This document shows positions 6,992-26,297 of a stretch of 64,000 nucleotides of DNA, in pieces. Origin of the DNA: a virus. Taxonomy: Duplodnaviria; Caudoviricetes. Positions within the stretch are counted from its first letter, which is position 1. Every line of letters begins with the position of its first letter. The stretch spans positions 742 to 64,741 of IMG/VR virus record IMGVR_UViG_3300012211_000004; one strand, written 5' to 3'. The translations under genes and the position numbers were made by a program. A model generated the notes under the pieces. It saw only the letters and a program-made list of their open reading frames with translations, was not told the DNA's origin and searched no databases.

Positions 6992-7037
6992 ATCACACCT
7001 CCTTTGTGTTTTTTAACATGCCAAAAAGCCCGTAAAC

Positions 7038-7066
7038 TTGCTCTACGGGCGGTTTTGTGGTATACT
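7038..7066 (+). promoter_or_regulatory. Sigma70-type promoter of the HNH gene
   Basis: TTGCTC-17-TATACT with extended TG. Confidence 0.65.
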
Positions 7067-7169
7067 TGAGGTAGAATATTGTTGTGTCCCAGCAATGTCG
7101 TACCGACGCTGATAACATCGATACAAAAGCACCCTGGGACGTGAGCTAGACCTGTAAGGAGGTTTCGCC

Positions 7170-8093
7170 GTGAATACCCTATCACTCTTTGCTCATGAGA
7201 GCAATCCCCCCAAGTTAAAACAGTGTCCCAAATGCCCTGAAGGACAGCAATGGCATCCTGCAACTCCTGAACACTTTTCCAGAAACAAGAACCGTGAAGA
7301 TGGTCTTCAAACGATCTGCAAAACATGCACGAAAGAATACAAGAAGCGACATTATCAAGCCCACAAGGAAGAGATAGACGCGAAAAACAAAGCATATGCA
7401 GAGTCGCATAAAGAACAGATGCGTGAGAAAAAGAAGCAATATGCAGAATCCCATAGGGAGCATTTACAGGAATATCACGCAAGGTATTATGAAGAAAACA
7501 AAGAACAGCTCTTAGAAGAGATGAAGCAATATTATCAGAACAATAGAGAGCAGAAGATTGCTTATCAGAGACAATATGAAGAGACACATAGAGAGCAAGT
7601 AAGAGAGAATAAAAGACAGTATCGAGAGAGAAACAAAGGGCGGATTTATGAACACAGAAAGACGCGTTATAAAGAAAGAATACGTGATTATCATAAGATG
7701 TATTATAAGATGCATAGAGGCCAGCATCTTGAGAATATGAGAAAATATCGTGAGACTCATAGGGAGCGATTGCTTGCACATAAGAGAAACTATTATAAGA
7801 CCCCACAAGGGCGAATGATAGACCGCGCTCATTGGCATAGGCGCAGAGCACAGAAACTGGCTTCTGGTGGCTCTTACACTGCACAGCAGATACGAGATCA
7901 ACTAAAGAGGCAAAAAAGGAAATGCTACTGGTGTAGCTGTAAGTTAGGAGCTTATCATATTGATCATATTGCCCCTCTCTCAAGAGGCGGATCGAATGAT
8001 ATAAGCAATATAGTGCTAGCCTGTGCTGGCTGCAATCTTCGCAAGGGAGCAAAGCTCCCACACGAATGGTCAGGCGGTGGTCGTCTTCTTTAG
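7170..8093 (+). CDS. Free-standing HNH homing endonuclease
   Basis: N-terminal CxxC..CxxC, long Y/K/R/E helical repeats, C-terminal CYWC..HIDHIAPLSRGGSNDISNIVLACAGCN. Confidence 0.92.
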   Translation: MNTLSLFAHESNPPKLKQCPKCPEGQQWHPATPEHFSRNKNREDGLQTICKTCTKEYKKRHYQAHKEEIDAKNKAYAESHKEQMREKKKQYAESHREHLQEYHARYYEENKEQLLEEMKQYYQNNREQKIAYQRQYEETHREQVRENKRQYRERNKGRIYEHRKTRYKERIRDYHKMYYKMHRGQHLENMRKYRETHRERLLAHKRNYYKTPQGRMIDRAHWHRRRAQKLASGGSYTAQQIRDQLKRQKRKCYWCSCKLGAYHIDHIAPLSRGGSNDISNIVLACAGCNLRKGAKLPHEWSGGGRLL

Positions 8094-8102
8094 TTGTCTC
8101 CA

Positions 8103-8129
8103 GAGGGTATATTATCATAGTATGCCCTC
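8103..8129 (+). terminator. Hairpin closing the HNH cassette
   Basis: 12-bp stem GAGGGTATATTA/TAGTATGCCCTC with 2 G.U pairs; no clear U-tract. Confidence 0.5.
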
Positions 8130-8139
8130 ACACCTCCTT

Positions 8140-8529
8140 TCATGTCGTTGAATCTAGCTGCAGCGTTATACTTTCTAAATTGGTCTTGCTTGGGTGACTC
8201 CATAAAGCACGGCCTATCATCTTTCCGCTATTTGCTAAGCTTGTAGCACTATTGCCACCAAAAACAGCTACTTCGGTGATTGAAACGCCTGCAGCATCTG
8301 TGTCGCTTATGAAGCAATTAATGAGTCTTTCTCCTACATTCGCTCCATTGCTAAAACTACTCACTTTCTTCCTGAATATTTCTACATCAAGCTTCGTTTG
8401 TGTCGCTATAGGTGTAGATGCTCCGGTCCCAAGCGCGAAATAGGTAGCTTTTGGATTGTCGGCCCCTGTAATGCCATCAGCTAGGAGACCATGGCCGCTA
8501 TTAACGATTGTAAGAGTTACTACTGGCAT
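8140..8529 (-). CDS. Tail tip/collar protein
   Basis: YFALGTG..TQTKL..EIFRK..ITEVAVF pattern of tail-collar fibre N-terminal domains. Confidence 0.7.
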   Translation of the reverse strand: MPVVTLTIVNSGHGLLADGITGADNPKATYFALGTGASTPIATQTKLDVEIFRKKVSSFSNGANVGERLINCFISDTDAAGVSITEVAVFGGNSATSLANSGKMIGRALWSHPSKTNLESITLQLDSTT

Positions 8530-8537
8530 AAATCACC

Positions 8538-10046
8538 TCAACATGGCCAAAGTGTATCAGATGGATATAAAGTGTTGCTTGGTATGGGACAGGCATTAAC
8601 GGTGATATTCAGATTAGCTGAAGGAGCGAACGTTGCTGCAAGTTGCGTAAGAATATTCACATCTTGGTTTGATCCAACATTAATGCTATTTGCAGGTGGT
8701 GGTGTTTTGAGCAGTTTCGAGAAGAAGTCCACCCACGTCACATCATAGGCACCCAACACTGCTGTTATCGTGTAGTAGATGTTTATACCGTCGCGTTGAT
8801 CGCTAGCTATCACACTCTCGATAAGCAACTGCTGATTATTGAGACCGTGCCATGGAAGATTGACAGGGATGAGCTGACCAGGTGCGAATCCTGCTACCCG
8901 TGTATCGAATGTGAGCACACACCCCTGTTGTCCATAGAGCGTGAGAGCAGACGAAGCCTCTGCAAGTGCGCTATTCATATCATTGAGAGATGGGTCAGTG
9001 ATCAAGTCCTCAATGATGCCACTCGTCCCGTCTATACCAGCCTGATAAGCCACTTGAGCCGCGTTCTGACTAATAATGGTGTTCGGGTATTGACCGATGT
9101 AAGTTACTGCAAGGACATCGGTACCAGTGAGCTTAGTAGCACTGCTATCCTGAGTGATGACTTTTGAGCCTTTATTCCAGTAGAAGTCTTTTCCAGTATC
9201 AACTCCTCCTATGCCTACCGTCTTGCCTGTGCCATTGACTGTGATAGTTGGAACCGTCGCAAGATCAAAGAGCATCGTCCAGGTTGTAGAACTGCCATCC
9301 CCTTTACGCGTTTCAGGTTGCGAGAGCGTCTGAGCTACACCCCCGTTTACTATTTGCTGTGTTCTATAAGACGGGTTAGCCCATTTTACACTAATAGTAT
9401 CTTGCAGCGTACCATCTATCAGTGTGTTATTTACAACTGTAGTATAGGGAACAAACCAGAATTGTTTATTTTGATCTATCATCCAATAATACGGGACACC
9501 AGAGTCAGAAGCCGCTTTTGCAAGTGCGTCTAACGCTTCTGAGACTTTGCAATAGCCAAAGATAGCCTGGGGGATCAAGCCAACATTCCCGCCCGGGTAG
9601 AGGGTATCAGAAGGATAGAGGGTATCAGAGGGGGTTAATCCGTCATAGATCTGTCCTCTTGTGACACCTTCCTGGCTCAAAATGTTGTTGAGAATGTCCT
9701 GAGCGATAAATCCGCAGGTCTTATTGGTGTAAGTGGCTGCTATACGCCTCTTGGAAGCAAGCCAAGACTGATCTGAACAACTGATAGCATTCCTGATGTA
9801 GCCATGAAATCCGAGCGGGTCATTATAGCCGTTGGGCGTCTCCGTTGGATCATTCATGTATCCAGAGAAGGATAGGACGTTATTCTGGTCATAGACACTG
9901 ACTTGAGTTAGTGGTGTGAAATGTACATCACTTCCCGTTTCGAGTGTAAAATTGGCTTGCCCGTGTTTGCCTATTGAGGATTGGGCATTCAATGAGCCTT
10001 GTACTACGAGCTGATCTACTCCATTCACATTGACTCTATAGCTCAT
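8538..10046 (-). CDS. Baseplate hub / distal tail protein
   Basis: Follows the tape measure; hub-like YYWMIDQNKQFWF segment; PSDTLYP repeats. Confidence 0.75.
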   Translation of the reverse strand: MSYRVNVNGVDQLVVQGSLNAQSSIGKHGQANFTLETGSDVHFTPLTQVSVYDQNNVLSFSGYMNDPTETPNGYNDPLGFHGYIRNAISCSDQSWLASKRRIAATYTNKTCGFIAQDILNNILSQEGVTRGQIYDGLTPSDTLYPSDTLYPGGNVGLIPQAIFGYCKVSEALDALAKAASDSGVPYYWMIDQNKQFWFVPYTTVVNNTLIDGTLQDTISVKWANPSYRTQQIVNGGVAQTLSQPETRKGDGSSTTWTMLFDLATVPTITVNGTGKTVGIGGVDTGKDFYWNKGSKVITQDSSATKLTGTDVLAVTYIGQYPNTIISQNAAQVAYQAGIDGTSGIIEDLITDPSLNDMNSALAEASSALTLYGQQGCVLTFDTRVAGFAPGQLIPVNLPWHGLNNQQLLIESVIASDQRDGINIYYTITAVLGAYDVTWVDFFSKLLKTPPPANSINVGSNQDVNILTQLAATFAPSANLNITVNACPIPSNTLYPSDTLWPC

Positions 10047-13000
10047 ATCGTCGCCCCCGTAGCGTACCTTATCAAATCCACCTGATGGGGCATGAGCCCA
10101 CGTGCTAGCGTACGCCCGTCAACCTGGAAGTGAGGCGGGGCATTGTGGACATGGACATGGATAGTAGGAGAGCTTTGCTGTGCAGCGAGGTTAACACCGC
10201 CCGGGACATAAGGTGTTATGAGTTCGGGTCCTCTCTCACCAAAAGCGTAGTTAGTGCCCGTTCTTAGTCCTCTGCCTAAAATAGGTTCCGAGATTGTGCC
10301 GCCTTCAGAGTACCCAACATAGGGCCCGCCTGAAGCAAGCGAAAGTATACCGGGTACATGAAAAACATCACCATATCTTCCTTGAATGTAACGGATAGCA
10401 GAAATTGCTGAATCAATTCCGTTGAGGATATTGGTATGTCCGGGTAGCATATGCGCAGCAAATGTAGACGGTATCATTTGGAAGAGGCCTTGGCTAGGAT
10501 GACCCGCTTGAGCGTTACTATCCGTAAGATTTACAGCCGCCGGGTTGCCACCCGATTCCCTTACTGCTATCACTCCAAGCGGATTAGCCCAACTCGCGGG
10601 AACACCTGTAATCCCCATCGCAGTCGCTATCCAACTCGCTACATTCCCCGGAATATTCGCGGCCTGTCCCCCAAGGCTAAATTTAGGAAGCAGGTTTTCA
10701 ACCCAAGATAAAGCCCAGTCCTTCACTTTGTTAAACATCCCAGTTGCTAAATTTTCCATTCCGGGTAAGTTGGGGGCCGTGATATGAAGGCTGTTCATAA
10801 CCCCGTCGAGAATACTTTTCGCTCCACCGGATATCCATCCTAGGATTTGACTGCCAAGGTCTCCGATTCCACCAGCATAGCCCGGTATCTTGCCGCCTGT
10901 CATGCTCAGGAACAGCTCGGTGATATCATGCGGTGCTACTTTGGATCCTTTTGGCATCCAAGCCAGCTCAGGACCACGCTCACCCATGACCGCAAAACCA
11001 CCTGGATGGTCGTCGGTGCCTTCAGCATAGTGAGCGATCCTGCCAAGATGAGCTACTGGTATGGTGCCTTTCGTGCCCAGGCTGGTAGCGATATCATCAA
11101 GTCCTTTTCCGAAGAAGTTGATGAAGTTCTCAATACCCGATATGCCGTTATTCAATTGATCTATAATTGCGTTAATCAGTCCTTTAAATATATTTGATGC
11201 ATCTGTTTTTATTTCATTCCACTTATCGCTTGTCTTCTTTTTAACATCATCCCACGTATCAGAGAACCATTTACCGATAGGAGCCCATATTTGTGTAACC
11301 TTATTCCAGGCACCTTGGAATAGGTCATGAAACCAGTTACCTACCCCACCTAGGATATTTTGTACGTCATGCCACTTATCACCGAACCACTTGCCTATTG
11401 GTGTCCATATTTCAACTGTCTTATCCCACGCCTCTTTCCAACGATCATGAAACCATTGTCCTATGCCACCGAATATGTTCTGCACATCTTTCCATCTATC
11501 ACCAAACCACTTGCCTAGAGTCGCAAATAGCCAAGTAGTCCCGTTCCAAGCTTCCATCCACCGATCGTGAAACCATTGGCCTACACCCTGGAACCACTTT
11601 GAAACATCTTTCCATCTATCACCGAACCACTGCCCTATAGGCATCCATATCTCAACTACCTTGTTATATGCCTCTGTGAACCTATCATGGAACCATGTAC
11701 TTACTTTCCCCCAAACTGCTACAAGAATATTCCATATCGTCTGAAACACGTCGCCCATATAGTCCCGGAACGGCTTTGTGCTGTTCATGACCTCAGTCCA
11801 ACGGTCAGAGAACCAATGACCTATACCGCCAAAGAAAGCGATTACACCATTCCAGGCCTCTTGCCACTTGTCATGGAACCACTGTCCGATGCTGCCAAAT
11901 ATGGCTTGCGTATCGTGCCATCGGTCCTCAAACCACTTGCCAATACCACCGAAGAAGTGCGTAACGCCGCCCCAGGCTTCTGACCATCGATCATGAAACC
12001 AAGCTCCTATGCCACCCCAGATATTTTGTACACCTACCCACACACCATGAAACCAGTTACCTATGCCACCCCATATGTTCTTGATATCCTGTATAATATC
12101 TCCATGCTTCTGCTTTGAGCTCGCTTTGAGCTTATCCATCTCGCTTTCTGCTGATGTACGAGCTTTTTCATGAACACCTTTTGTGTTCATTGCGTGTTTT
12201 TCATCGGCCGTTACCTGTTGAAGTTGTATTTCGAGAGGATGGCGAGCTGCTTCGTCTTTTGTCTGGCTTAGTTTCTGTATTATGCCTATACGCATATCAT
12301 CAAGCTTTTGTATGGTTTGATTATCCATATCTATCACGCCGCCCAGATACATGTCTTTCATATTGAGCGAATGATACTTGGCCTTGTCCGCAGTGCTCAT
12401 AAGAGAGGTATCAACACCACTTTTTAGCAAGTCTATCTGTTCTTGCGACTTGTAGCGCATATCAACAAATTTCTGACCAGTCTCTTGAGACATTGTTAAT
12501 GCATTATTTACAGCGGCCAATCTCATTTCTAGTGTATGTCTTTGTGTTGCATCCGTTGTCTGTTTTAGTTGATTTTCAATTTCATTTCGCATCTCAATAA
12601 AATGAGTTTGCATGCCTTCATTCGTTTTTTGTGCATTTTCAATTGATTTATCTTTCATTTCAGCGGTATGTATTTGAGCAGCAATAGCCGCTGTTTTTGT
12701 CTTATCATTTACTCCATATACAATATCATTCAAATATCCTATAATGCTCGTAGCTGCACCTTTAAAGCCACCTGTTATCCCCCCAACTATCCCGTCTACT
12801 ATTCCCTTGAGCACGTTTCCGAACCCGCTGAATATCTGGCCTATTCCACCTAAGATAACCTTTAGATCGCCTCCAAGCTTATCAAAATGTCCAGTAAACA
12901 AATCTACGATAAAGGCGACAAATCCTGTAAATATCTGAATGTAGCCTGAAACTATCTGAACGATGCCACCAAAGATCTCAGCGATTCCGTGTGCCATACC

Positions 13001-17069: not shown

Positions 17070-17099
17070 CTAGCTATTTCTCTGCTGTACTCTAATTCT
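17070..17099 (-). pseudogene. Stranded 3' end of the tail-terminator gene (RIRVQQRNS*)
   Basis: Matches the C-terminus RVRVQQKP* of 17997..18446 at protein level; sits directly before the major tail RBS. Confidence 0.7.
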
Positions 17100-17258
17100 G
17101 TTTCCATAAATTGAGTGCAATAAGCATAGTGAAAATGCCATAAAGCTAGACAGGAAGCACATAGATGAGGTATAATAGAGGCCTAATGAATCGAGGCCAC
17201 AGGCGTTATCAGCACCTATGACCTCTAGGCTACTACATCTGTTAGGAGATGATTCGCC

Positions 17259-17966
17259 ATGACCACATTCTACCATCCTGGGCAACCTCTCTCTGATATT
17301 CCGCCAGCATCCGGCATTTATCGCATTACTTGCATCGTCACTAAAAAGATTTACATTGGCAGCGCTGTCAGTTTGCGCAGACGCTGGAAGGAACATCGCG
17401 GCGAACTTCGCCATGACCGCCATGGCAACCCTTACTTGCAATCCGCATGGAATAAGCATGGTGAAGATACTTTCACCTTTGAAGTTCTTGAGTTTGTGCT
17501 TGCTCCCCTTTTGCTTGAGAGAGAACAATACTGGATGGATAAACTTAAGCCCTATGAAAAAGACAAGGGGTTTAATATTGCTCACTCTGCATGGTCCCCT
17601 TTGGGGGTAAAACGCTCGCCTGAAACCCTTGAGAAAAACCGTATTGCGTCGACTGGTCGCACTCATTCTCCAGAAACCATTGAGCTTATGAGAGCATCTC
17701 ACCGCGCCACACATCGCACGCCTAAAGAGATAGAGAGGGTACGCGCTCTGCAAAAACGTGCTGTTAACGCAAGACGTGGGCGTATCATTGCTATTGACCC
17801 TAATGGGACTGAGTATGAGGTTTTCGGTATTAGGCAGTTCTGTATAGACCATAACCTTATTGATTCCCACCTTATTAGCGTTGCTAAGCGTCCTACCACC
17901 CCTAACGGCAAACTACGTCATCATCAAAGATGGACTGCGCGTTATCCTGAAACAGATACTAAATAA
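17259..17966 (+). CDS. Free-standing GIY-YIG homing endonuclease with NUMOD3-like repeats
   Basis: SGIYRI..KIYIGSA..R..H..E..FNI catalytic motifs; KRSPET and THSPET repeats. Confidence 0.93.
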   Translation: MTTFYHPGQPLSDIPPASGIYRITCIVTKKIYIGSAVSLRRRWKEHRGELRHDRHGNPYLQSAWNKHGEDTFTFEVLEFVLAPLLLEREQYWMDKLKPYEKDKGFNIAHSAWSPLGVKRSPETLEKNRIASTGRTHSPETIELMRASHRATHRTPKEIERVRALQKRAVNARRGRIIAIDPNGTEYEVFGIRQFCIDHNLIDSHLISVAKRPTTPNGKLRHHQRWTARYPETDTK

Positions 17967-17996: not shown

Positions 17997-18446
17997 TTAC
18001 GGCTTTTGTTGTACGCGGACGCGGTACAGTCCGCCGATATGCGTGTATTGAATACCTGCTGTATCATCATCGTAGGCTAAGGGTGATTGGCGATACGCGG
18101 AGAGCACGTAGCCCCCGGGTACTGGAATATGCTTTAGCCCTTTGTCACCTCCAAACGCGTCGTCAATAGCCGCTGCAAGATCGAATACTGCTTGTGAACT
18201 GCCAAACCCCGGATCTGTTGGACCCGTTGCTTTTATCTGATAAAGAGCGTCAATGAATGCTCTAACGGCATTCGCGTATATAACATCATTTCCGCCCTGG
18301 AATGCGGTTATCGTACACGGAAATACCGTCCCTACAGGAGCTTTCCCTCTATGAATGCCACCAAGGCTAAGAGCTACCCACTGGCTGCTAGCTTTGAGCG
18401 TTGTGACGATAAAAGAGAATCCACTGACGACTTCGTTGGTGCTCAC
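17997..18446 (-). CDS. Tail terminator / completion protein (DUF3168-like)
   Basis: GGIHRGKAP..FP motif; position upstream of the major tail gene. Confidence 0.75.
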   Translation of the reverse strand: MSTNEVVSGFSFIVTTLKASSQWVALSLGGIHRGKAPVGTVFPCTITAFQGGNDVIYANAVRAFIDALYQIKATGPTDPGFGSSQAVFDLAAAIDDAFGGDKGLKHIPVPGGYVLSAYRQSPLAYDDDTAGIQYTHIGGLYRVRVQQKP

Positions 18447-18720: not shown

Positions 18721-19023
18721 CTAGGCAGGCTCTACAGGCGCTTCAGTCTGAGCAGGTGGCTCAGGTGGTACTACAGGCATTTTAGGTTCTGTATGCTCAG
18801 TAGTGATTACATGGTTCCATGAATTTTTTTCATGGCTCGTACTGTAAGGCACGTCTGACACTGGTGTGATTTGCCCGTCCACATTCACATCAAGCTCTGC
18901 ATGGTGATTACCGTCATGGTGCGTTATGCGCTTGATAACGGCATCGAATAATCTACCTGCATGATTGATATAGTGAGCTTTGTCGTTTGAAACCGTTTCG
19001 CGATTGTTTACGATGTCTGACAT
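18721..19023 (-). CDS. Hypothetical protein
   Basis: Co-oriented ORF in the head-tail module. Confidence 0.7.
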   Translation of the reverse strand: MSDIVNNRETVSNDKAHYINHAGRLFDAVIKRITHHDGNHHAELDVNVDGQITPVSDVPYSTSHEKNSWNHVITTEHTEPKMPVVPPEPPAQTEAPVEPA

Positions 19024-19029
19024 ACTTTC

Positions 19030-19434: not shown

Positions 19435-19805
19435 GTGACAGCTCCTGCGATAACCGTGTCTTCGACGCTAAAAGTATGCGGATCTTGCACAATCTGTACT
19501 ATCATCTTTTGACCGTTAATAGTGAGCAAGTCCCCTTCTGCTGGATTCGTGTTCAGAGGAAAGCCCACATTCCATTTAGAGAATGCTCCAATGCGCTCGT
19601 TATAGTTCTGAAGCAGCACAGGCCTGGGCAAGACTGCTACACGACACTTGACCGTGCGAGTTGTGACCGTGCCTGCAACTTCTGTGCCGTAGGGATCGTC
19701 TACCTTTGCCGTGTGCGTGATCAGGCAGTCATCCTTGTACAGCCCTTCCTCTACGAGATCGCCACTCAGTTCTTGCAGCTCATCGTCATCAATAAATACC
19801 ATCAA
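19431..19805 (-). CDS. Head closure / stopper protein
   Basis: DDPYG..CRV..GDLLTING pattern and synteny. Confidence 0.7.
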   Translation of the reverse strand: MMVFIDDDELQELSGDLVEEGLYKDDCLITHTAKVDDPYGTEVAGTVTTRTVKCRVAVLPRPVLLQNYNERIGAFSKWNVGFPLNTNPAEGDLLTINGQKMIVQIVQDPHTFSVEDTVIAGAVT

Positions 19806-20427
19806 GCCCTCTTGTCAGCAAGTCTCTATTGTTGGTATCATCGCGTCTCATCTTTGCCGTTTTCGGTTTTGCCTGTCGCCGGTAGTATTGAGACATGGTG
19901 AGCTTGGATTGCATAAGTTGCGACCTGGATAACTCATTCCCTCCTACTTTCACATCATATTTGCTCGCTAATCTAGCAGCCCAAAACTCTAGTAAATCGG
20001 CTGCTGCTGCATTGCAATCATATATTTTGCCAGTCGCAAAAACAGGCGGTAGTTGTCCGGGTGACGTGCCATTCACAAAAGGCGTGAGTTGAAATTGAAA
20101 GTGACCTGTGATGTAATCCGATGCAGCAGGAGTAATCACTTTCCAGAAATTACCGGATAGATCACCTTGCAGCGTAACATCGCTTTCCCACCAACCAAAA
20201 TCTGCATAATAGTCTGCAAAGACGAATTGAGCTTGATTATTCGTACTTGCCGTATTTACAATGGATGGTGCCTCTTTTAATCGAAGATACCTTATGTCAT
20301 CACGACTTGCGTCTAGTCTGTCTTGGATTTGTTGTTCCGTGAATTGTGTCACTGTCATCCCCACCGGATCATTAATCATAGTGCGAACAAGGACTATCAG
20401 ATCAGACATACTGCTACGAACAGGCAT
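19789..20427 (-). CDS. Head-tail adaptor
   Basis: VRTMIND..FTEQQI..AAADLLEFWA..SRSQ pattern and synteny. Confidence 0.7.
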   Translation of the reverse strand: MPVRSSMSDLIVLVRTMINDPVGMTVTQFTEQQIQDRLDASRDDIRYLRLKEAPSIVNTASTNNQAQFVFADYYADFGWWESDVTLQGDLSGNFWKVITPAASDYITGHFQFQLTPFVNGTSPGQLPPVFATGKIYDCNAAAADLLEFWAARLASKYDVKVGGNELSRSQLMQSKLTMSQYYRRQAKPKTAKMRRDDTNNRDLLTRGLDGIY

Positions 20428-20436
20428 AGTATCCCC

Positions 20437-20676
20437 CTATTGCGCCTTCTTCGTACCCTGAGCAGGCTTCCCAATCTGCTCAGCAGATTTGTCCTCTTGT
20501 GTCTGCTCGCTACCAGCTTCACCGCTTGGCACTTGCGGTTGCTCCGGTTCTTGTGGTGCTTCCTGTTGTGTAGGATCTGCTATCTCTTGTCCACCTTCAC
20601 TCAGCAGACGCTTGATATGATCCTCATTCACCACTTTTATCTTTTGTCCGTTTGTATGCAATATCCACATAATCAT
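20437..20676 (-). CDS. Small head-associated hypothetical protein
   Basis: ATGA overlap at 20676 with the upstream gene; acidic/Gln-rich tail. Confidence 0.65.
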   Translation of the reverse strand: MIMWILHTNGQKIKVVNEDHIKRLLSEGGQEIADPTQQEAPQEPEQPQVPSGEAGSEQTQEDKSAEQIGKPAQGTKKAQ

Positions 20677-21065
20677 GCGCTCGTTGGTACCATGAATGCC
20701 GTGATAGTTCCGGTAGTTCCTGCGTCCGTGTCTATATTCAGCGACCCGTCGGGCTGTGCAAAACGCGCGATCTCGAATGGCCCTATCCACTTGGTTGTGG
20801 CATTGGTGACAGAGACCACCAGATCTCCAATGCCTGCACGGAATGCCAGTGCCTTATCAGATCCTTTGCCAACTGTCACGTTATGCGGAGCAGCTGCTGT
20901 GTTCGCAACTCGCAGCAGAAGCTTATCCATATGTGGCCCCGATGGAATAGCTGTGGTAGGAATTGCCACATTCATGCCATTGGCCTGATCGATCGCTGTC
21001 CCTGCCGGGTCTGCAAGGCTGCCATTTGCCACAAGGTTCGAGAGAGGTAAATTTGTTCTAGCCAT
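20673..21065 (-). CDS. Putative capsid decoration protein
   Basis: Beta-rich 130 aa directly after the capsid gene; GGAGG RBS. Confidence 0.6.
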   Translation of the reverse strand: MARTNLPLSNLVANGSLADPAGTAIDQANGMNVAIPTTAIPSGPHMDKLLLRVANTAAAPHNVTVGKGSDKALAFRAGIGDLVVSVTNATTKWIGPFEIARFAQPDGSLNIDTDAGTTGTITAFMVPTSA

Positions 21066-21080
21066 GTCTTTCTTTCCTCC

Positions 21081-22007
21081 TTATGGCTTCTGCAGGTAAG
21101 CGACGGCTATAGCATCCGGTCGGATGGTTTTAGCCCCATAGAGCATGAGCCCTTTGACGGCATCTCCAAATCGACGCTCAGGCCGATACGCCACGACTTC
21201 ACGCAAGCCCTCAGCTTTTGTAAGCCCCATGCTGTGACCCGCGAAGAAGACATCCTGCGAACCGGAGGCCCCGACTGTTCCGCCTATATGGGGAGCATTC
21301 AGACTCTCGTAGATGTCCATGTTCTCGATCTTGCCAAGGTATGCATCACTCGCTTGGCCTGCGCTAGCATCAAGCTTTCCAGAAAGGATAGTCAGACGTG
21401 CTTCAGGCGTGTTGAAGCCTGTAAAGCGTGCATCCTGAGTGAGATGTGATTTACCCCAGGGGGGTATCACACACCATCGGCCCTGCTTGGGTATCTTGGC
21501 TTCTGTAAGCTTCTGGGCAAGAGTAACGAGGTTGTCGTAGAGCGTTGTGCCTGCACCAATGTTTGCAGCGGTAGGGACAGCAACAACCGTAGGAGTACCT
21601 GAAGAACCAATGAGATTAGCAGATGGAGCATCGGTATAGAAACCCGCATAGTACTGATCTTGAGTATCTGCCATCTGGTAGCCAGCATCGGACATAGCCT
21701 GCATCATGACCTTTGGCTTGCTCTGTGCCTTGTCCACGTCATCAATAAGGAAGTTGTAAGACTTCGCTTGTGAGATGGTAAGTACCGTTTGTGCATCAGT
21801 TAGGGCTTGAGGAGATGTTATGTCGGTATCTTTGACATAATTCGAGATCGTTACTTGGCTTATGGAGCTAATTCTAACTGTATCGCCGTATGCTTCAATT
21901 TCACCTGAGTAGTCGGAATTGAATAAAGCGCCGAATACTTGGTTTTTGCGCAGGGCGACGATCATAGAATCAGCCCATATCTCGGCTATAAATGAGTTGA
22001 GGCTAAT
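21081..22007 (-). CDS. Major capsid protein (HK97 fold); probable ATT start at 22007 (alternative ATG at 22025)
   Basis: SLNSFIAEIW..GDTVRI..IDDVDKAQ..DAVKGLMLYGAKTIRP motifs; GGGAGGTG RBS is placed for ATT. Confidence 0.9.
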   Translation of the reverse strand: MSLNSFIAEIWADSMIVALRKNQVFGALFNSDYSGEIEAYGDTVRISSISQVTISNYVKDTDITSPQALTDAQTVLTISQAKSYNFLIDDVDKAQSKPKVMMQAMSDAGYQMADTQDQYYAGFYTDAPSANLIGSSGTPTVVAVPTAANIGAGTTLYDNLVTLAQKLTEAKIPKQGRWCVIPPWGKSHLTQDARFTGFNTPEARLTILSGKLDASAGQASDAYLGKIENMDIYESLNAPHIGGTVGASGSQDVFFAGHSMGLTKAEGLREVVAYRPERRFGDAVKGLMLYGAKTIRPDAIAVAYLQKP

Positions 22008-22082
22008 ATCACACCTCCCTATCATCCCCTGTCTAATGTCTCTCGAAAGGCACTAAACACGAGATATAAAGACTATAGAGTG

Positions 22083-22799
22083 TTATCTAGGTCCGGGGTT
22101 ACTTGCCATCCATTGCTGTATTTCAGCACGTCGTGCTCTATATTGAGCGGGATCTTTCATCGACATCTCTGAGATAATCTCCCAGGAAAGCGGCTGTGAA
22201 GCGGTCTGTGACCTGCTCGGGTTAGTAGCGCCTCCGCTCGTTTGAGCTTGCTGTTTACTTACCAGCCAAGTGCGCTCCTTCACCAATGTCTTGAGCAAAG
22301 CTTCAATGTTGGAAGGGTTACCGCTATCGTCATACTCGATCTGAGAGTCATCTAGAAGCCTATCGGCGGCGTCCAAGTCAATGATATTAAGCCTTTGGCC
22401 GTGCTTGAATACTTCGTTCGTGACTCTTAGTTTCTGAGTCTGACGTGTAGCAGCCTCTCTTTCCTTCTGAAGCTCTGCTAGTTGCTTTTCCAAGGCCTGA
22501 CGTTCAAGTTGACGCTTCTCATCGTCTGACATCTTCTCAGCGTCAACTTTTGCCTTGAATGCTTCTAGCTCTTTGAGCTTGGCAGACAGATCATTAGATT
22601 GAAGTCGATGATCCTTGCCGTCCTTATTGGCCTTGCTAAGAGCAGCCTCCATGCGCTGCACTTGTGCTTTTAGATCGTCAATGGATGGTTCGGTGCTTCC
22701 TGACGTCGCGTCATTCTGCTGAGTGACCGTCTCGGTCGTGGGGTCCGCTTCGTTTCGCGTCTCGCTAGTCGAAGTGGATGTTGTGGTTTCGTCTCCCAT
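22083..22799 (-). CDS. Capsid scaffolding protein
   Basis: Acidic N-terminus, coiled coil, SGGATNP C-terminal motif, directly upstream of the capsid gene. Confidence 0.85.
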   Translation of the reverse strand: MGDETTTSTSTSETRNEADPTTETVTQQNDATSGSTEPSIDDLKAQVQRMEAALSKANKDGKDHRLQSNDLSAKLKELEAFKAKVDAEKMSDDEKRQLERQALEKQLAELQKEREAATRQTQKLRVTNEVFKHGQRLNIIDLDAADRLLDDSQIEYDDSGNPSNIEALLKTLVKERTWLVSKQQAQTSGGATNPSRSQTASQPLSWEIISEMSMKDPAQYRARRAEIQQWMASNPGPR

Positions 22800-22856
22800 G
22801 GTACACGATACCTTTCTATATTGTCAAGATACTTCTAGTACATCCAAGGTATTCGA

Positions 22857-23441
22857 TTAGCTGTGAGCTATTCCAGAAATTGTCTTTTCTGTCATGTTCC
22901 TGTCTCTTTGGCGATTGGATTGAATATAGCTCAAGATCTCCTGAGCATAGTTTTGCCAAAGTAACCCTATACAGATCTCATCAGCAAAATTTAGAGCATC
23001 AATGTGCTGTATCGTGACACTTTTGCTCTTATCCCAAGCAAGATGGGCAATATATTCAGTTGGAGTTACCTCACATTCAATGGGGATAAGGTCGGAAAGC
23101 TTCGTTTGCTCTATCCGTTTCTCAGTAGGGCAAAATGCTTCAGCAAGTATCGGATTTTTACGCTTCCAAGCTTCAAACATTCCTCCCAGCAGGGTATCTC
23201 TAAAATCCTTGATGATCGGCAAGATATGAGCCACTTCATCACGATCTGACTGCTTTTCCTGTTCGGATAACTCAGCATAGGGCGTGTCTATCTGTATTTG
23301 CAGTGCTGCTACGTAACCAGCAGGAATAGTGAGCGACCCGTCTGGATTGTGCTCACACTTTGAGAACAGATAGGCCATATACGAAGACCAGCCAGCGTGC
23401 TCTTTGCCTGCTAGTGCCTCTATCAGTTCTTCTTCTGTCAT
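22857..23441 (-). CDS. Hypothetical phage protein
   Basis: EALAGKEHAGW..TPYAELSEQEKQSDR motif (RyR-like phage domain). Confidence 0.7.
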   Translation of the reverse strand: MTEEELIEALAGKEHAGWSSYMAYLFSKCEHNPDGSLTIPAGYVAALQIQIDTPYAELSEQEKQSDRDEVAHILPIIKDFRDTLLGGMFEAWKRKNPILAEAFCPTEKRIEQTKLSDLIPIECEVTPTEYIAHLAWDKSKSVTIQHIDALNFADEICIGLLWQNYAQEILSYIQSNRQRDRNMTEKTISGIAHS

Positions 23442-23498
23442 CTAATACCAGCCTTTCCCTTTCATCGGCTTCCCTTTGCCCTTCTTAGTCTTTTTCAT
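23442..23498 (-). CDS. 18-aa Lys/Gly-rich micropeptide MKKTKKGKGKPMKGKGWY
   Basis: TAAGGAG RBS; the TAG stop abuts the next ATG. Confidence 0.55.
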   Translation of the reverse strand: MKKTKKGKGKPMKGKGWY

Positions 23499-23832
23499 GT
23501 CTCTCCTTATTGCGTATAACAGGCACACCGTCACGAAAGTCCATGGAAGCACCTTCACCTGCATACTGTTCTAACAATGCCTTCCCTTCCGTGCTTTCCC
23601 AATAATCTCTCCATATGGGGCTATCAGAAGTCTCATATGCCTCGTAGATAGATGCTAGAATCTTGACGAGTTGAGGCCCAGAAGCGCCGCTATGGCCTTG
23701 CTTAGCGATCAAATCAACAACTTGCATAGCGCATGTGCCAAGCCATCCATCGTAGTCGCTGTCCTTATCGAATAATCCCTCACGTTCGAGCCATTTCTTT
23801 GCAAATATACGAGAATTCATGTTATCACTCAT
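23485..23832 (-). CDS. Hypothetical phage protein
   Basis: DSDYDG..QGHSGASG motif; ATGA coupling. Confidence 0.75.
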   Translation of the reverse strand: MSDNMNSRIFAKKWLEREGLFDKDSDYDGWLGTCAMQVVDLIAKQGHSGASGPQLVKILASIYEAYETSDSPIWRDYWESTEGKALLEQYAGEGASMDFRDGVPVIRNKERHEKD

Positions 23833-24092
23833 GATGACCTTTCCATATCCTCTCTCAACTGGTCACTGTGAATGCCAGCAGATTTAGCCGCAGCTTCGTT
23901 CAGTGCCGCTGCAAGCTCATAGTTTTGCTGAGCAAGATCCAGGGAGAACGCATATCCCTCCAAAGACGCTTGCTCTGGTGTGATTCCGCTACGGCAAAGA
24001 GCCAACATAAACTCGCTGACCCTGTTACAAAGCAGACGGAAATCAAGCCCGTATTTGTTGAACTGCCTGACAAGTTCGTTATAAGTCTCCAT
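23829..24092 (-). CDS. Hypothetical protein
   Basis: ATG 24092 overlaps the TAA of the exonuclease remnant (TAATG). Confidence 0.65.
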   Translation of the reverse strand: METYNELVRQFNKYGLDFRLLCNRVSEFMLALCRSGITPEQASLEGYAFSLDLAQQNYELAAALNEAAAKSAGIHSDQLREDMERSS

Positions 24093-24322
24093 TACCTTAC
24101 TCCCCATCCTAGAGCATCTTTCAAGACATACTCGCATAACTTCTTGATATGCCTTGCATCATCTAGTGCGTTATGCGCATACCCATATTGCTTAGGAAGA
24201 TCATCATCTGATATACCACGAACGTCTAGCACGTGCTGAAGATCTCGAATGTAGTGGGGATACCCCTTGGGCAAGTCCATCATAGTGCCAAAGAGTTGAC
24301 ACAAAGCAACGAAGTCGTAAGC
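24092..24322 (-). pseudogene. Stranded 3' half of a DEDDh exonuclease gene (AYDFVALCQLFG..HNALDDARH)
   Basis: Clear paralogue of the C-terminal half of 25180..25650; homology starts exactly at the LAGLIDADG stop codon. Confidence 0.85.
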
Positions 24323-25122
24323 TAAAAGCAGCTTCGCAAAACATTCCATTTTCTCTCCAATCTAGGCAGATCTGGCTGCATCAGCTTCTTCCCCATATTA
24401 ATAGCTCGGGTAGCCCCGATACGATAAGCATAGAGATTATGTTGTGGCACAAAACAGACTTCAGACCGCTTATAATTTGTGATGGGAGACCACTTATCAA
24501 AATAGGTTTGTACCCACTTTAATATAGCTTGTGTCCCATAAATCGCAATTCGTGGATAATGACGAATTGCGTCCTTGATTGTTATAGAGCCGTCACCATC
24601 AATTAAACCTACAATGAATGCACATATCATGTCTTCATCAGTAAGAAATGGAGGCTCTAATGTAAAACTCTTTTTAGGAGTAACATTAAAATTCCTCACT
24701 AAATCATCCGCCATCTCTGGACATGCTATTTCTAGGGAAGCATCCTTTTCATACCGATACACCTTACCTGTGTACTCTAGTGCTTCACGGAACTTTTCCA
24801 AATGAGACGCATCCTTTATATGGAGTTTGACACTGATCCTTTTCCGATGAGGCCGTATATTTCCATCCGCAGCCAAAAAACCAGCCCAATAAGAATTGAG
24901 CATGTTAGGAACAGCAAAAAACTCCTTGTTAGCGCAATACTTACGACCTAAATTTGAAGTACTAGTTATATCAAGCGTATTAGCGTGATTTCTTACTGCC
25001 ATCCAAGTCCTCCCCGGAAGTAAGTCTGCCATTTGCTGATAAGTAAGCACTCCATAATTCGCAATCAATATCTGTTCCTCTGCTTGTGTCCACCGGATAG
25101 GAGTATCATATGAATGGGGCAT
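24322..25122 (-). CDS. Free-standing two-motif LAGLIDADG homing endonuclease
   Basis: YWAGFLAADGNI and FIVGLIDGDGSI motifs; N-terminal Myb-like WTQAEEQIL. Confidence 0.92.
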   Translation of the reverse strand: MPHSYDTPIRWTQAEEQILIANYGVLTYQQMADLLPGRTWMAVRNHANTLDITSTSNLGRKYCANKEFFAVPNMLNSYWAGFLAADGNIRPHRKRISVKLHIKDASHLEKFREALEYTGKVYRYEKDASLEIACPEMADDLVRNFNVTPKKSFTLEPPFLTDEDMICAFIVGLIDGDGSITIKDAIRHYPRIAIYGTQAILKWVQTYFDKWSPITNYKRSEVCFVPQHNLYAYRIGATRAINMGKKLMQPDLPRLERKWNVLRSCF

Positions 25123-25154
25123 AATAAGTCATCCTTTCTCAAATTGATGACTTT

Positions 25155-25183
25155 ATTATATAGCCCCAAATTTATAATGTCAA
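25155..25183 (-). promoter_or_regulatory. Consensus sigma70 promoter of the LAGLIDADG gene
   Basis: TTGACA-17-TATAAT; the -35 box overlaps the exonuclease TGA stop. Confidence 0.8.
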
Positions 25184-25650
25184 CCATGAAAGCGCTCCCA
25201 TGTTTGTTTTACCCAACGAGCATCTTCAAGCGCATTGTGAATTGAGTCATCAGGCTGACGAATATCATGCAATCCTTTCATGTCAAGCATCTGGCGTAAG
25301 TCGTAAGTGAGCATTGGATAGCCTTCAGGCAAATCAGCCATCTCTCCAAAGATTTGGCAAAAGACAACGTGGTCATAAGCACTGTAGTATCCCCACAACT
25401 CAGGATTACCATACTCTTCTATATCAAAGAAATCAAGCAATGTAACTTTAATACTTCTCAAAGACCATCGGCATTCGCCGCCCTTCAAATGCGATAAGAC
25501 ATTTTCTCTTACCCATTGATTTGCTTTCCCCTTATCAAAATCAGCAGACTCTAGATATAACTCTCTTCCATCCTCACACACTATTCCTATACTTATAAGA
25601 TCAATTGTCTTACCATCTTCAATAAATTCTGTGTCGTAGAAATATTTCAC
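25180..25650 (-). CDS. 3'-5' exoribonuclease, DEDDh (Rv2179c/DUF5051-like), intact copy
   Basis: FYDTEF..ISIG..AYD..HNALEDARW catalytic motifs. Confidence 0.88.
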   Translation of the reverse strand: MKYFYDTEFIEDGKTIDLISIGIVCEDGRELYLESADFDKGKANQWVRENVLSHLKGGECRWSLRSIKVTLLDFFDIEEYGNPELWGYYSAYDHVVFCQIFGEMADLPEGYPMLTYDLRQMLDMKGLHDIRQPDDSIHNALEDARWVKQTWERFHG

Positions 25651-25703
25651 CGCTTGCTCCTAACCTCTTGCACAACATGACACCATTATGGTATAATATG
25701 TAC

Positions 25704-26237
25704 ATGATATGTTCTATGGAAAATTGCACAAAACAGACCTACGCACGCAACGTCTGTATGGCTCACTATCGTTGGCTTAGACGAAGGGGGATGCTTCCTC
25801 CTCAAGAGGAAGCGACTCAACCTTTTCAAAAATGCACCGTTGATGGGTGCGAAAAGCCCCAGGACGTAAAAGGGTATTGCGTTGCGCACTACAAAAAAGT
25901 TCTTAGGTATGGGGACCCTCTTGCAGGCCCAGGCAAAGGGTCCCCAGGAAAACCAAAACCTTATATGGAAACAGATCGCAGGCGCATGATCAATAATCAC
26001 GGATACGCCTTGATCAGGGTCGCACCAAGCAAGTGGGTGATGGAACATCGTTATGTTATGGAACAGCGTCTTGGGCGTCCTCTGGAAAAGGATGAACGGA
26101 TACATCATAAAGATGGCAATCGACTGAATAATACCCCAGAGAATTTGGAGCTTTGGTTGCATAGCCACCCTAGCGGACAGCGCATGGAGGACATTGTTGC
26201 TTGGGCAAAAGAAATCTTGCAACGTTACGGAGAATAG
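25704..26237 (+). CDS. Free-standing HNH homing endonuclease, probably leaderless
   Basis: Two CxxxxC..CxxHY zinc modules, EHRYVME..IHHKDGNRLNNTPENLEL; ATG 6 nt after TG-TATAAT (25692-25697). Confidence 0.9.
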   Translation: MICSMENCTKQTYARNVCMAHYRWLRRRGMLPPQEEATQPFQKCTVDGCEKPQDVKGYCVAHYKKVLRYGDPLAGPGKGSPGKPKPYMETDRRRMINNHGYALIRVAPSKWVMEHRYVMEQRLGRPLEKDERIHHKDGNRLNNTPENLELWLHSHPSGQRMEDIVAWAKEILQRYGE

Positions 26238-26244
26238 TTTTATT

Positions 26245-26269
26245 AGGGGTTGTCCTTGAGATAGCCCCT
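26245..26269 (+). terminator. Hairpin closing the HNH cassette
   Basis: AGGGGTTGTC/GATAGCCCCT stem with 2 G.U pairs. Confidence 0.5.
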
Positions 26270-26271
26270 TA

Positions 26272-26297
26272 TCCGTGTCGTAGAAAAAACGTGTCAT
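26272..26297 (-). pseudogene. Stranded 5' end of the exonuclease gene (MTRFFYDT)
   Basis: AAAAGGAG RBS plus ATG; 12-bp exact repeat GTGTCGTAGAAA shared with 25631-25642. Confidence 0.8.

What the first reader, a model, noticed from the sequence alone, without database searches (positions are those of the whole stretch)
6993..26297. Recurrent 'insert and replace the gene end' architecture at four unrelated homing endonucleases
Seen: all four free-standing endonuclease cassettes in the late operon are flanked by a duplicated piece of the neighbouring gene. HNH 7170 has a duplicated RBS, GIY-YIG 17259 a duplicated C-terminus, LAGLIDADG 24322 a duplicated C-terminal half, and HNH 25704 a duplicated N-terminus. 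One copy completes an intact gene. The other is a stranded remnant still correctly spaced or coupled to the next or previous operon gene. Established: homing endonucleases usually avoid disrupting a gene by living in introns or inteins or by sitting between genes, and integrative elements restore target genes by carrying a replacement end. Inference: these cassettes insert into conserved coding sites without splicing and rescue the gene with a diverged, possibly cleavage-resistant terminus. Seeing this for three nuclease families in one genome suggests a general strategy, similar to a natural rescue-type gene drive. I cannot establish novelty without a literature search.
Basis: partly seen in the sequence, partly recalled or inferred. 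Interest (0 to 1): 0.88.

Follow-up and report, generated by a model that had tools for sequence, protein, structure and literature searches.

The report
Homing endonucleases that replace gene ends
Four selfish DNA-cutting-enzyme genes in an uncultured soil phage each lie beside a leftover piece of the gene they invaded, because each seems to have brought a foreign substitute for that piece; the layout is real and recurs in other phages, but it matches a trick already described in fungal mitochondria.

Summary
All four duplications exist. HNH 7170 is bounded by a 13-nt RBS repeat. GIY-YIG lies beside at least 9 codons of the 149-aa gene's C-terminus. LAGLIDADG lies beside 64 aa (48% identical) of an Rv2179c-like exonuclease, and HNH 25704 beside 9 codons of that gene's N-terminus.

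Relatives support the polarity. 19 of 20 have no nuclease at the GIY site, and the remnant plus spacer matches two of them. The exonuclease remnant is 69-76% identical to uninterrupted alleles elsewhere but 48-50% to the copy beside it.

The layout recurs: the same N-terminal junction in L104, a different HNH with C-terminal remnants in L083 and L085-87, and 7 of 75 LAGLIDADG loci in IMG/VR.

Best reading: homing from diverged donors copied the donor's gene end, and illegitimate joining at the break stranded the native end. Cleavage resistance is untested; left of the HNH 25704 junction the two copies barely differ. HNH 7170 differs, because its neighbour gene holds a 235-nt group-I-like insert.

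This is the kind known as fungal mitochondrial mORF gene hybrids and as remnants in phage HEG-islands. This scan has 45 similar notes on other genomes. New member of a known kind.

The parts
6313..6705 (-). Body (exon 2) of the 135-aa tail-region gene, beginning INKTFLDG; the ORF list starts it at GTG 6720, and TTG 6708 is an alternative start
   Evidence: Homologues L030 and L032 (53% identical) read straight from the N-terminal motif into this part.
6706..6940 (-). 235-nt structured insert (group-I-like) between codons 17 and 18 of that gene
   Evidence: Absent from 2 of 2 homologues. It follows a T and ends in G. MFE z = -4.72, 0 of 200 shuffles as stable. No Rfam hit.
6941..6991 (-). 17 codons (ACG, then GQYTKIGPFNQGGAPG): the N-terminus of the same gene, with no canonical start codon in frame
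6993..7005 (-). RBS repeat, copy 2
7170..8093 (+). HNH endonuclease gene, antisense to the operon
   Evidence: Pfam HNH, 3.5e-12. No such gene lies between the two neighbour genes in L030 or L032.
8128..8140 (-). RBS repeat, copy 1, starting in the stop codon of gene 8140-8529 (stranded copy)
17070..17116 (-). Decayed remnant of the 149-aa gene's 3' end: RIRVQQR at 17099-17079, in-frame stop at 17072-17070, and a possible TQFM at 17116-17105 in another frame
17147..17176 (+). Promoter-like site (TAGACA, 18 nt, TATAAT; 11/12) upstream of GIY-YIG
17259..17966 (+). GIY-YIG endonuclease gene, antisense to the operon
   Evidence: Pfam GIY-YIG, 1.3e-10. Absent at this junction in 19 of 20 relatives.
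17997..18446 (-). Intact 149-aa gene with the replacement C-terminus (ends RVRVQQKP)
24092..24349 (-). Open 85-aa ORF. Residues 10-85 are the native C-terminal half of the exonuclease. The first 9 codons overlap the LAGLIDADG 3' end. It ends in TAATG with the next gene.
24322..25122 (-). LAGLIDADG endonuclease gene, same strand as the operon
   Evidence: Pfam LAGLIDADG_3, 3.9e-07; homologues
25155..25183 (-). Consensus promoter-like site (TTGACA, 17 nt, TATAAT; 12/12) whose -35 overlaps the exonuclease stop codon
25180..25650 (-). Intact Rv2179c-like 3'-5' exonuclease gene (live, foreign-type copy)
   Evidence: Pfam 3e-12. Closest is L051: 76/89 over residues 1-89 but 17/40 over residues 113-156.
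25668..26237 (+). HNH_3 endonuclease gene, divergent from the exonuclease gene (ATG 25704 is an alternative start), with a promoter-like site at 25669-25697
   Evidence: Pfam HNH_3, 1.4e-09. L104 has a 59-60% identical homologue in the same position.
26271..26297 (-). Native 9-codon N-terminal remnant of the exonuclease gene, behind its own RBS
   Evidence: parallel in L104

Best explanation
These are four autonomous free-standing homing endonuclease cassettes that entered a soil phage's late operon from diverged donor phages by break repair.

Inferred sequence of events: the nuclease cut the resident neighbour gene, in or next to conserved codons. The broken end that still had homology invaded the donor's version of that gene. 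Copying then ran through the donor's gene end and the nuclease gene. On the far side, where homology was lacking or too diverged, the copy was joined illegitimately at or near the break. This is 'one-sided' homing.

The result is a live gene finished by a foreign end, then the nuclease gene, then the native end as a stump that still carries the operon's RBS or stop-start coupling.

The exonuclease gene was hit on both sides, so it is now a cargo gene bracketed by an HNH and a LAGLIDADG gene.

The HNH 7170 cassette left only a 13-nt RBS duplicate. It lies 230 nt from a group-I-like insert in the neighbour gene and may move together with it.

Shown: the anatomy, the sporadic distribution, the native-versus-foreign polarity and the recurrence. 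Inferred: the cleavage sites, the repair route and any benefit.
For: Nuclease domains are confirmed.

Sporadic distribution: 19 of 20 relatives have 3-133 nt between the 149-aa gene and the tail gene, and 1 of 20 (L013) has a GIY-YIG homologue there. L030 and L032 have no HNH and no 235-nt insert. Five complete or near-complete relatives have no exonuclease gene at all.

Polarity: the exonuclease remnant is 49/69, 50/66, 48/67, 47/68 and 47/66 identical to uninterrupted or other alleles in L079, L080, L081, L082 and L085-87. It is 31/64 identical to the copy beside it. Several of those alleles lie between portal and scaffold genes, as here. The 149-aa-gene remnant with its spacer matches L014 and L003, while the live end resembles the L004/L007 type.

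Read-through: in run X3, two contigs fit the remnant up to 24319 and continue with sequence that, in the remnant's frame, reads as an exonuclease-like GFELW... stretch where the window has LAGLIDADG (table 7; translated by hand).

Recurrence: L104 has MRYFLDTD, then a reverse HNH_3 (99/164 identical), then an intact gene, broken after the same D-T-D. L083 and L085-87 have an intact exonuclease gene, then an unrelated HNH-type ORF (it gave no tblastn hit to any of the window's four nucleases), then a C-terminal remnant. L085's remnant is 38/49 identical to L083's live copy but 22/42 to its own.

Wider scan: 7 of 75 LAGLIDADG loci have flanking translated duplications above the mismatched-pair maximum of 21.2 bits, at both N- and C-ends.

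L081 carries an internal deletion (MRYFID|AYDYV) whose ends fall within 0-2 codons of the window's two junctions.

One-sided homing with illegitimate junctions was shown in T4, as summarised in PMC2988022 (passage read).
Against: No cleavage site is known for any of the four enzymes.

The HNH 7170 duplicate is a perfect 13-mer rather than a diverged gene end, which one-sided repair does not obviously predict.

The GIY remnant is short. Only about 35 nt are significant at DNA level, and 6 of 8 relatives compared give no signal.

L013 holds the GIY-YIG homologue with no coding remnant found, so a remnant is not obligatory.

The window and L104, and L083 and L085, could each share a junction by descent rather than by repeated cutting. 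The DNA at the L083/L085 junction is visibly similar by eye.

No donor and no cassette-free haplotype of this phage was found.

The generic scan recovered only 1 of the window's own 4 cases, so its 7 of 75 is neither a full census nor a test of short remnants.
Confidence: 0.65

Rival explanations
1. One reading: each cassette is an evolved unit (nuclease plus a recoded, cleavage-resistant gene end) that works as a natural cleave-and-rescue drive. It cuts the native allele and supplies an immune replacement.
For: The duplicates are diverged: 118/207 nt identical, and about 6 of the first 22 nt after the LAGLIDADG junction differ by my count on the aligned sequences. Nuclease and adjoining end appear together in several phages with different remnants. 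Junctions sit on catalytic-motif codons, D-T-E and A-Y-D. The remnants stay open and coupled.
Against: Left of the HNH 25704 junction the live copy keeps the native sequence: 11 consecutive identical bases and 1 difference in the last 14. The divergence equals what a foreign lineage gives. L013 shows the same nuclease family at the same junction without a replacement end. No cleavage data exist.
Confidence: 0.3
2. Ordinary phage mosaicism: illegitimate recombination between diverged phages left duplicated scars, and the endonuclease genes settled later in these dispensable scars or merely hitch-hiked.
For: The relatives are strongly mosaic. The exonuclease gene itself sits in different contexts, for example between baseplate-region genes in L146. 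The live exonuclease is itself mosaic against L051: 76/89, then 17/40.
Against: All four nuclease genes of this stretch have such a duplicate. Junctions abut the nuclease ORFs within 0-60 nt. The same junction recurs with homologous nucleases. Apart from the 141-nt gap at 6172-6312, the stretch has no long non-coding gap on the operon strand outside the cassettes.
Confidence: 0.12
3. Local tandem duplication of the gene end, followed by divergence in place and later insertion of a nuclease gene between the copies.
For: HE-dependent segmental amplification is documented for SegB in phage T6 (PMC13096335, passages read).
Against: The remnant is far closer to alleles in other phages (69-76%) than to its neighbour copy (48-50%). 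The same holds for L085.
Confidence: 0.03
4. The nuclease genes lie in self-splicing elements and the 'remnants' are real exons that are spliced onto the gene.
For: The gene next to HNH 7170 does contain a group-I-like insert with an in-frame exon junction.
Against: That HNH lies outside the insert. No Rfam family hits 5500-27500. The live exonuclease and the 149-aa gene are complete with their own stops. The 149-aa-gene remnant is out of register with the L014 allele.
Confidence: 0.03

Closest known systems
Mobile endonuclease ORFs (mORFs) that make 'gene hybrids' in fungal mitochondria: Allomyces macrogynus atp6; Glomus atp6, atp9, cox2 and nad3 (PMC3630166, passages read). Also C-terminal duplications of cob and atp6 beside HEGs in Endoconidiophora resinifera (PMC6279837, passages read).
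   Same: The order is inserted foreign gene end, then endonuclease ORF, then native end retained. The native end is closer to relatives than the inserted one. LAGLIDADG and GIY-YIG families are involved.
   Different: Here the host is a phage late operon. Two cassettes are antisense to the target gene. One replaces the 5' end (RBS, start and 8 codons) rather than the 3' end. The nucleases are free-standing with promoter-like sites of their own rather than fused in frame. No enzyme has been tested.
Phage 'HEG-islands' (Barth, Dunham and Seed preprint, PMC10055350; section 22 read, passages)
   Same: A cargo gene is bracketed by two HEGs of different classes (here HNH_3, exonuclease, LAGLIDADG). 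Small ORFs that are fragments of the cargo are noted as remnants. HEG classes are interchangeable at cognate sites.
   Different: Those islands are reported as more than 90% identical in DNA between unrelated phages. I found no near-identical copy, and the closest exonuclease is 74% identical in protein. Their figures and supplements were not seen.
[quoted passage not shown]
   Same: Homology on one side only supports acquisition, with junctions at microhomology. It was proposed as the route to ectopic sites.
   Different: That was an experimental intron system. Here it is inferred from end products.
Collaborative homing of a free-standing endonuclease with an ORF-less intron (F-CphI and psbA; Zeng, Bonocora and Shub 2009; seen only as reference-list entries, content recalled)
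   Same: HNH 7170 lies 230 nt from an ORF-less group-I-like insert in the adjacent gene.
   Different: Neither splicing nor cleavage at the insertion site has been shown.
mobE insertion that splits nrdA in phage Aeh1 (Friedrich et al. 2007; seen only as a reference entry, content recalled)
   Same: A free-standing HEG sits inside a coding region without an intron or intein.
   Different: There the gene is split into two working pieces. Here it is completed by a substitute end and the old end is stranded.

Membership tests
Free-standing homing endonuclease gene | Encodes a nuclease domain of a homing-endonuclease family | tested here: met
   Pfam HNH, GIY-YIG, LAGLIDADG_3 and HNH_3, all above the curated cut-offs
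Free-standing homing endonuclease gene | Sporadic presence between conserved genes of related genomes | tested here: met
   19 of 20 relatives are empty at the GIY site. L030 and L032 are empty at the HNH 7170 site. Homologues sit elsewhere in G001, L005, L018, L021 and L117.
Free-standing homing endonuclease gene | Site-specific cleavage of the allele that lacks it, and biased inheritance | not testable with these tools
   Needs enzyme assays and crosses
mORF-type gene hybrid (end replacement) | A substitute gene end completes the gene next to the endonuclease ORF | tested here: met
   Met for 3 of 4 cassettes: the intact exonuclease has a full Pfam domain, and the 149-aa gene is full length against 20 homologues. 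Not shown for HNH 7170, where the start codon is ACG.
mORF-type gene hybrid (end replacement) | The native end is retained beyond the ORF and is closer to relatives than the substitute | tested here: met
   69-76% against 48-50% for the exonuclease C-half. 16/16 and 18/19 nt for the 149-aa-gene remnant with its spacer. Too short to test for the 9-codon N-terminal remnant.
mORF-type gene hybrid (end replacement) | The endonuclease cuts the uninterrupted gene at the insertion point | not testable with these tools
   Indirect only: the same junction recurs in L104 and the L081 deletion ends lie at both junctions
HEG-island | Cargo gene flanked on both sides by HEGs | tested here: met
   HNH_3, exonuclease, LAGLIDADG
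HEG-island | Island nearly identical in DNA between otherwise unrelated phages | tested here: not met
   No megablast match among 50,697 phage records. The best exonuclease relative in IMG/VR is 74% identical in protein. A single 214-nt contig in run X4 fits 25189-25395 with 3 changes, which is too little to count.
Group I intron (the insert at 6706-6940, beside cassette 1) | Removal restores a conserved reading frame; T before the 5' junction; G as last base | tested here: met
Group I intron (the insert at 6706-6940, beside cassette 1) | Conserved catalytic core recognised by a family model | tested here: inconclusive
   No Rfam hit even at E up to 10 on 551 nt. The fold is unusually stable (z = -4.72). 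Helices were assigned by eye only, and no homologue was found for covariation.
Group I intron (the insert at 6706-6940, beside cassette 1) | Splicing | not testable with these tools
   No RNA run listed

The most novel reading that the evidence does not exclude
Nuclease-plus-gene-end cassettes are a common, self-sustaining class of phage element that behaves as a natural cleave-and-rescue drive on either end of a gene. The stranded native stump marks the enzyme's cut site to within a codon and is kept open because the operon's translational coupling runs through it. If so, remnant boundaries would give target sites for many uncharacterised homing endonucleases from sequence alone, and the exonuclease gene would be a shuttle cargo passed between phages by at least four nuclease families.
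Probability: 0.3. Interest if true: 0.7.

Novelty: new member of a known kind. Interest (0 to 1): 0.5.

Why it matters
The finding gives junction-level anatomy for how free-standing homing endonucleases invade coding sequence in phages without an intron or intein, at both 3' and 5' gene ends. It also shows by a simple scan that this is not rare (7 of 75 LAGLIDADG loci).

In practice, remnants give a sequence-only way to guess the target sites of uncharacterised nucleases. They also flag chimeric gene ends that would mislead phylogenies and annotation.

Conceptually it links phage HEG-islands to the mitochondrial mORF literature. It is not a new principle.

Tried and rejected
Searches that found nothing:
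- Megablast of 6000-27000 against 50,697 phage records gave no match.
- tblastn with the tail protein found only a shared Ig-like stretch in actinophages.
- Rfam on 5500-27500 (E up to 1) and on 6650-7200 (E up to 10) gave no relevant family.
- blastn of the 235-nt insert against phages gave one chance-level hit.
- Single-protein scans for relatives of gene 8140-8529 and gene 26315-26614 gave one locus each.
- The single-protein scan with LAGLIDADG gave none.

The direct-repeat finder on 6000-27000 did not report any of the four duplications. Its output showed only the 20 largest of 39 families, mostly tape-measure repeats.

L013 was examined for a coding remnant beside its GIY-YIG homologue. 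None was found above noise, and the cassette sits in the spacer.

A possible longer GIY remnant (PLLY, TQFM) is collinear but not significant.

The HNH_3 flank scan gave 1 of 25 loci above the null maximum of 26.2 bits (L266, 151 aa at 34%). It looks like two paralogous genes, not an end replacement. In the same call the window served as positive control: only the LAGLIDADG case scored above the null (63.2 bits). The other three scored 13.5, 20.4 and 19.6 bits, so the scan is blind to remnants under about 20 codons.

In the LAGLIDADG scan two high scorers (L159, L187) are low-complexity alignments and were dropped. L161, L163 and L164 are one gene family.

No RNA holder was listed. Laid contigs of four runs showed no joint across any cassette, so no cassette-free haplotype was seen. 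Contigs drop rare variants.

The 404-aa ORF at 6904-8118, antisense to HNH 7170, was rejected as a composition artefact from its Ser/Leu/Cys/His-rich translation.

Papers: five searches found no phage paper that describes the flanking-duplicate layout beyond the HEG-island remark. PMC2248197 and PMC5871332 were checked by passages and do not describe it. Supplements are closed, so the figures and supplementary figures of PMC10055350 and PMC3630166 were not seen and may hold closer examples.


Full report
**What the window is.** The window is nearly all of a 64.7-kb IMG/VR virus record that CheckV rates complete. Two soil-metagenome runs hold the stretch searched (24000-26400) in full, and their contigs cover 6600-26500 almost without change. 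Bases 3,700-30,700 are a tightly packed late operon on the minus strand: small and large terminase-like genes, portal-like, capsid, major-tail-like, a 1,714-aa tape-measure gene and baseplate-region genes. No close relative exists among 50,697 deposited phages. IMG/VR holds relatives at 46-71% protein identity for the tail gene.

**The four nuclease genes.** Pfam confirms HNH at 7170-8093(+), GIY-YIG at 17259-17966(+), LAGLIDADG at 24322-25122(-) and HNH_3 at 25668-26237(+). Three of them have a strong promoter-like site just upstream: 12/12 for LAGLIDADG, 11/12 for GIY-YIG, and 10/12 with a TG for HNH_3. The number of such sites per region is not above shuffles, so only the individual quality counts. 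For HNH 7170 the scan lists none directly upstream. By eye an extended -10-like TGGTATACT lies there.

**Cassette at GIY-YIG.**
- In 19 of 20 related loci the homologue of the 149-aa gene ends 3-133 nt before the tail gene. Only L013 has a 1,360-nt gap, and it holds a GIY-YIG homologue.
- In the window, the 206 nt between the GIY-YIG start and the tail gene end with ...RIRVQQRNS, a stop, an RBS and the tail ATG.
- The last 35 nt or so align to L014 and L003 across the end of the coding sequence, the stop and the spacer: 16/16 and 18/19 nt. The alignment scores are reached by 0 of 200 shuffles. The other 6 of 8 relatives compared give nothing.
- Against L014 the remnant is out of register. By my count on the printed sequences, one base is missing just before the old stop and about 13-14 nt further up. 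It is therefore a decaying stump, not an exon.
- The live C-terminus (GIQYTHIGGLYRVRVQQKP) resembles the L004/L007 type, while the stump and spacer are of the L014/L003 type.
- L013's cassette lies in the spacer and I found no coding remnant there.

**Cassettes around the exonuclease gene.**
- The intact 156-aa gene (Pfam Rv2179c-like, 3e-12) is followed by LAGLIDADG. Then comes an open 85-aa ORF whose residues 10-73 match residues 91-152 of the intact protein: 31/64 identical, E 7e-19, and 118/207 nt identical.
- The LAGLIDADG stop codon lies on the codon just before the Y-D of the A-Y-D motif. The stump ends in TAATG with the next gene.
- On the other side, 17 nt after the stop of gene 26315-26614, an RBS and ATG open MTRFFYDTD. 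The sequence then runs into a 33-nt hairpin-like spacer and the end of the antisense HNH_3 gene. The live gene starts (V/M)KYFYDTEF.
- The two 5' ends share 11 consecutive bases and part ways inside the Glu codon of the D-T-E motif.
- That N-terminal motif occurs once in the window's six frames; the shuffle mean is 0.03.

**Polarity at the exonuclease gene.**
- The stump is 49/69, 50/66, 48/67, 47/68 and 47/66 identical to alleles in L079, L080, L081, L082 and L085-87.
- In L079, L082, L085-87, L122 and L132 an exonuclease gene lies after the portal gene, as here. In L085-87 and L122 a scaffold-like gene follows it as well.
- The live copy belongs to another group. Its best match is L051, at 76/89 over residues 1-89 and 18/23 over 90-112.
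- Its last 44 residues match nothing well (17/40 to L051). The copy is therefore itself mosaic, with a break near G-Y-P-M.
- Five long relatives of the tail module have no exonuclease gene at all. In L146 the gene sits between baseplate-region genes. It behaves as movable cargo.

**Read-through.** In run X3, from a study other than the two likely source runs, two contigs fit the stump up to 24319. They then continue for about 250 letters with sequence that, read by hand on the minus strand in the stump's frame, gives an exonuclease-like G-F-E-L-W... stretch (table 7; agreement 0.82). This is like the residues before the Y-D in L083. These contigs come from related phages, not from this phage without its cassette. 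They place the junction within one codon.

**Recurrence elsewhere.**
- L104 has MRYFLDTD, then the end of a reverse HNH_3 gene (99/164 identical to the window's), then an intact gene starting MRYYIDTEF. The break follows the same D-T-D. Among 108 exonuclease loci only L104 shows such an upstream motif. A second regex hit, in L075, appears to be that gene's own start.
- L083 and L085-87 have an intact gene, then a same-strand HNH-type ORF of 248-255 aa that gave no hit to any of the window's four nucleases, then an open C-terminal stump. L085's stump is 38/49 identical to L083's live copy, 22/42 to its own live copy and 21/43 to L083's stump. The two HNH proteins are 135/246 identical. The same site has therefore seen different alleles displaced. 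However, the DNA right at the junction looks similar between the two by eye, so part of the layout may be inherited.
- L117 has a GIY-YIG homologue (52% identical) behind its exonuclease gene.
- L081 has an exonuclease gene with an internal deletion reading MRYFID|AYDYV. Its ends lie within two codons and zero codons of the window's two junctions. Cutting at both sites followed by rejoining would give this.

- From 80 IMG/VR loci with LAGLIDADG homologues, 75 had both flanks.
- I compared the translated 900 nt upstream with the 900 nt downstream. As a null I used 75 mismatched locus pairs, whose maximum was 21.2 bits.
- Nine loci scored 29 bits or more. Two are low-complexity and were dropped. 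That leaves 7 of 75, or 5 independent gene families.
- They include N-terminal duplicates: 20-22 codons of a DnaE-like gene in L161, L163 and L164; 36 codons in L203; and one in L229.
- They also include a C-terminal duplicate (L200) and a whole 200-aa gene in two copies between two LAGLIDADG genes (L222).
- The same scan on 25 HNH_3-like loci gave one hit that looks like paralogues.
- On the window itself the scan recovered only the LAGLIDADG case. It misses short stumps.

**Cassette at HNH 7170.**
- The 13-mer repeat is real and unique.
- After copy 2 come 17 codons that match the N-terminus of the neighbour gene's homologues: MGNYTPVGPFNQGSSPP in L030 and MGQYTQVGPFVDGSSPG in L032. Their first codon is ACG, and no canonical start lies in frame.
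- Then come 235 nt that both homologues lack. After those the frame resumes at INKTFLDG with exactly the homologues' length.
- The insert follows a T and ends in G. It folds far better than shuffles (z = -4.72). By eye it offers a short splice-site helix with a U-G pair.
- No Rfam model hits it, and I found no homologue with which to test covariation.
- This cassette is therefore not a clear 'replace the gene end' case. It may move together with the insert, as in collaborative homing. That is a lead, not a result.

**Mechanism.** The simplest account uses known parts. Free-standing nucleases cut HEG-less alleles, and the break is repaired from the donor with co-conversion of flanks. When only one flank is homologous, repair still occurs, with an illegitimate junction on the other side (T4 work as summarised in PMC2988022). 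That yields exactly a donor gene end, then a nuclease gene, then a native stump that begins at or near the cut. Nothing here shows that the substitute ends are cleavage-resistant.

**Comparison and verdict.**
- The layout equals the mORF gene hybrids of fungal mitochondria (PMC3630166; PMC6279837). For one of these the review passage says the endonuclease was shown biochemically to drive mobility.
- In phages, fragments of cargo genes inside HEG-islands have been noted in one paragraph (PMC10055350).
- Five literature searches found no fuller phage description.
- Earlier notes of this scan report the same layout on other DNA: 45 findings in at least 45 genomes.
- I rate it a clean, multi-case new member of a known kind, of moderate interest. 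Its main value is as a sequence-only pointer to nuclease target sites.

Noticed in passing
window 6706-6940 (-), with 6941-6991: A 235-nt highly structured insert splits the tail-region gene after codon 17, and removing it restores the homologues' frame and length. The upstream 17 codons start with ACG, not a canonical start. A TTG at 6708 behind an AGGAG could start a truncated protein from unspliced RNA.
   Followed up: partly
L081 3641-3680: An exonuclease gene with an internal deletion (MRYFID joined to AYDYV). Its end points nearly coincide with the window's HNH_3 and LAGLIDADG junctions. A TnpB-like ORF lies 900 nt upstream.
   Followed up: partly
window 25180-25650 (-): The live exonuclease is mosaic relative to its closest relative L051: 76/89 and 18/23 identical up to about residue 112, then 17/40. 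The break lies near G-Y-P-M, close to where the HNH cassettes of L083 and L085 join.
   Followed up: partly
L146 3737-4186; L117 1162-2977: The exonuclease gene turns up in other contexts: between baseplate-region genes in L146, and followed by a GIY-YIG homologue in L117. This suggests it is a shuttled cargo gene.
   Followed up: no
window about 17065-17076 and about 17143-17154: A 12-nt inverted repeat (AGCTAGACAGGA) brackets the GIY-side stump. One arm is the tail gene's RBS region and the other overlaps the -35 of the GIY-YIG promoter-like site. The coordinates are my conversion from the alignment.
   Followed up: no
window 7028-7050: A hairpin flanked by T-runs on both strands (terminator-like in both directions) lies between the HNH 7170 upstream region and RBS copy 2. 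It would face operon transcription coming through the antisense HNH gene.
   Followed up: no
L222 277-3852: Two LAGLIDADG genes alternate with two full copies (57% identical over 182 aa) of a roughly 200-aa gene.
   Followed up: no
window 25189-25395: A 214-nt contig from a freshwater metagenome run (X4) fits the 3' half of the live exonuclease gene with 3 changes in 207 nt. The rest of the stretch is barely covered in that run.
   Followed up: no
window 11244-12088 (-): Tandem 120-nt (40-codon) Trp-rich repeats in the tape-measure gene. One 736-nt contig in runs X1 and X2 joins 11473 to 13392, probably a repeat artefact.
   Followed up: no
G001 4343-5221: A homologue (33% identical) of HNH 7170 sits next to the tape-measure gene in a related phage, so the same nuclease family occupies another junction of the tail module.
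   Followed up: no
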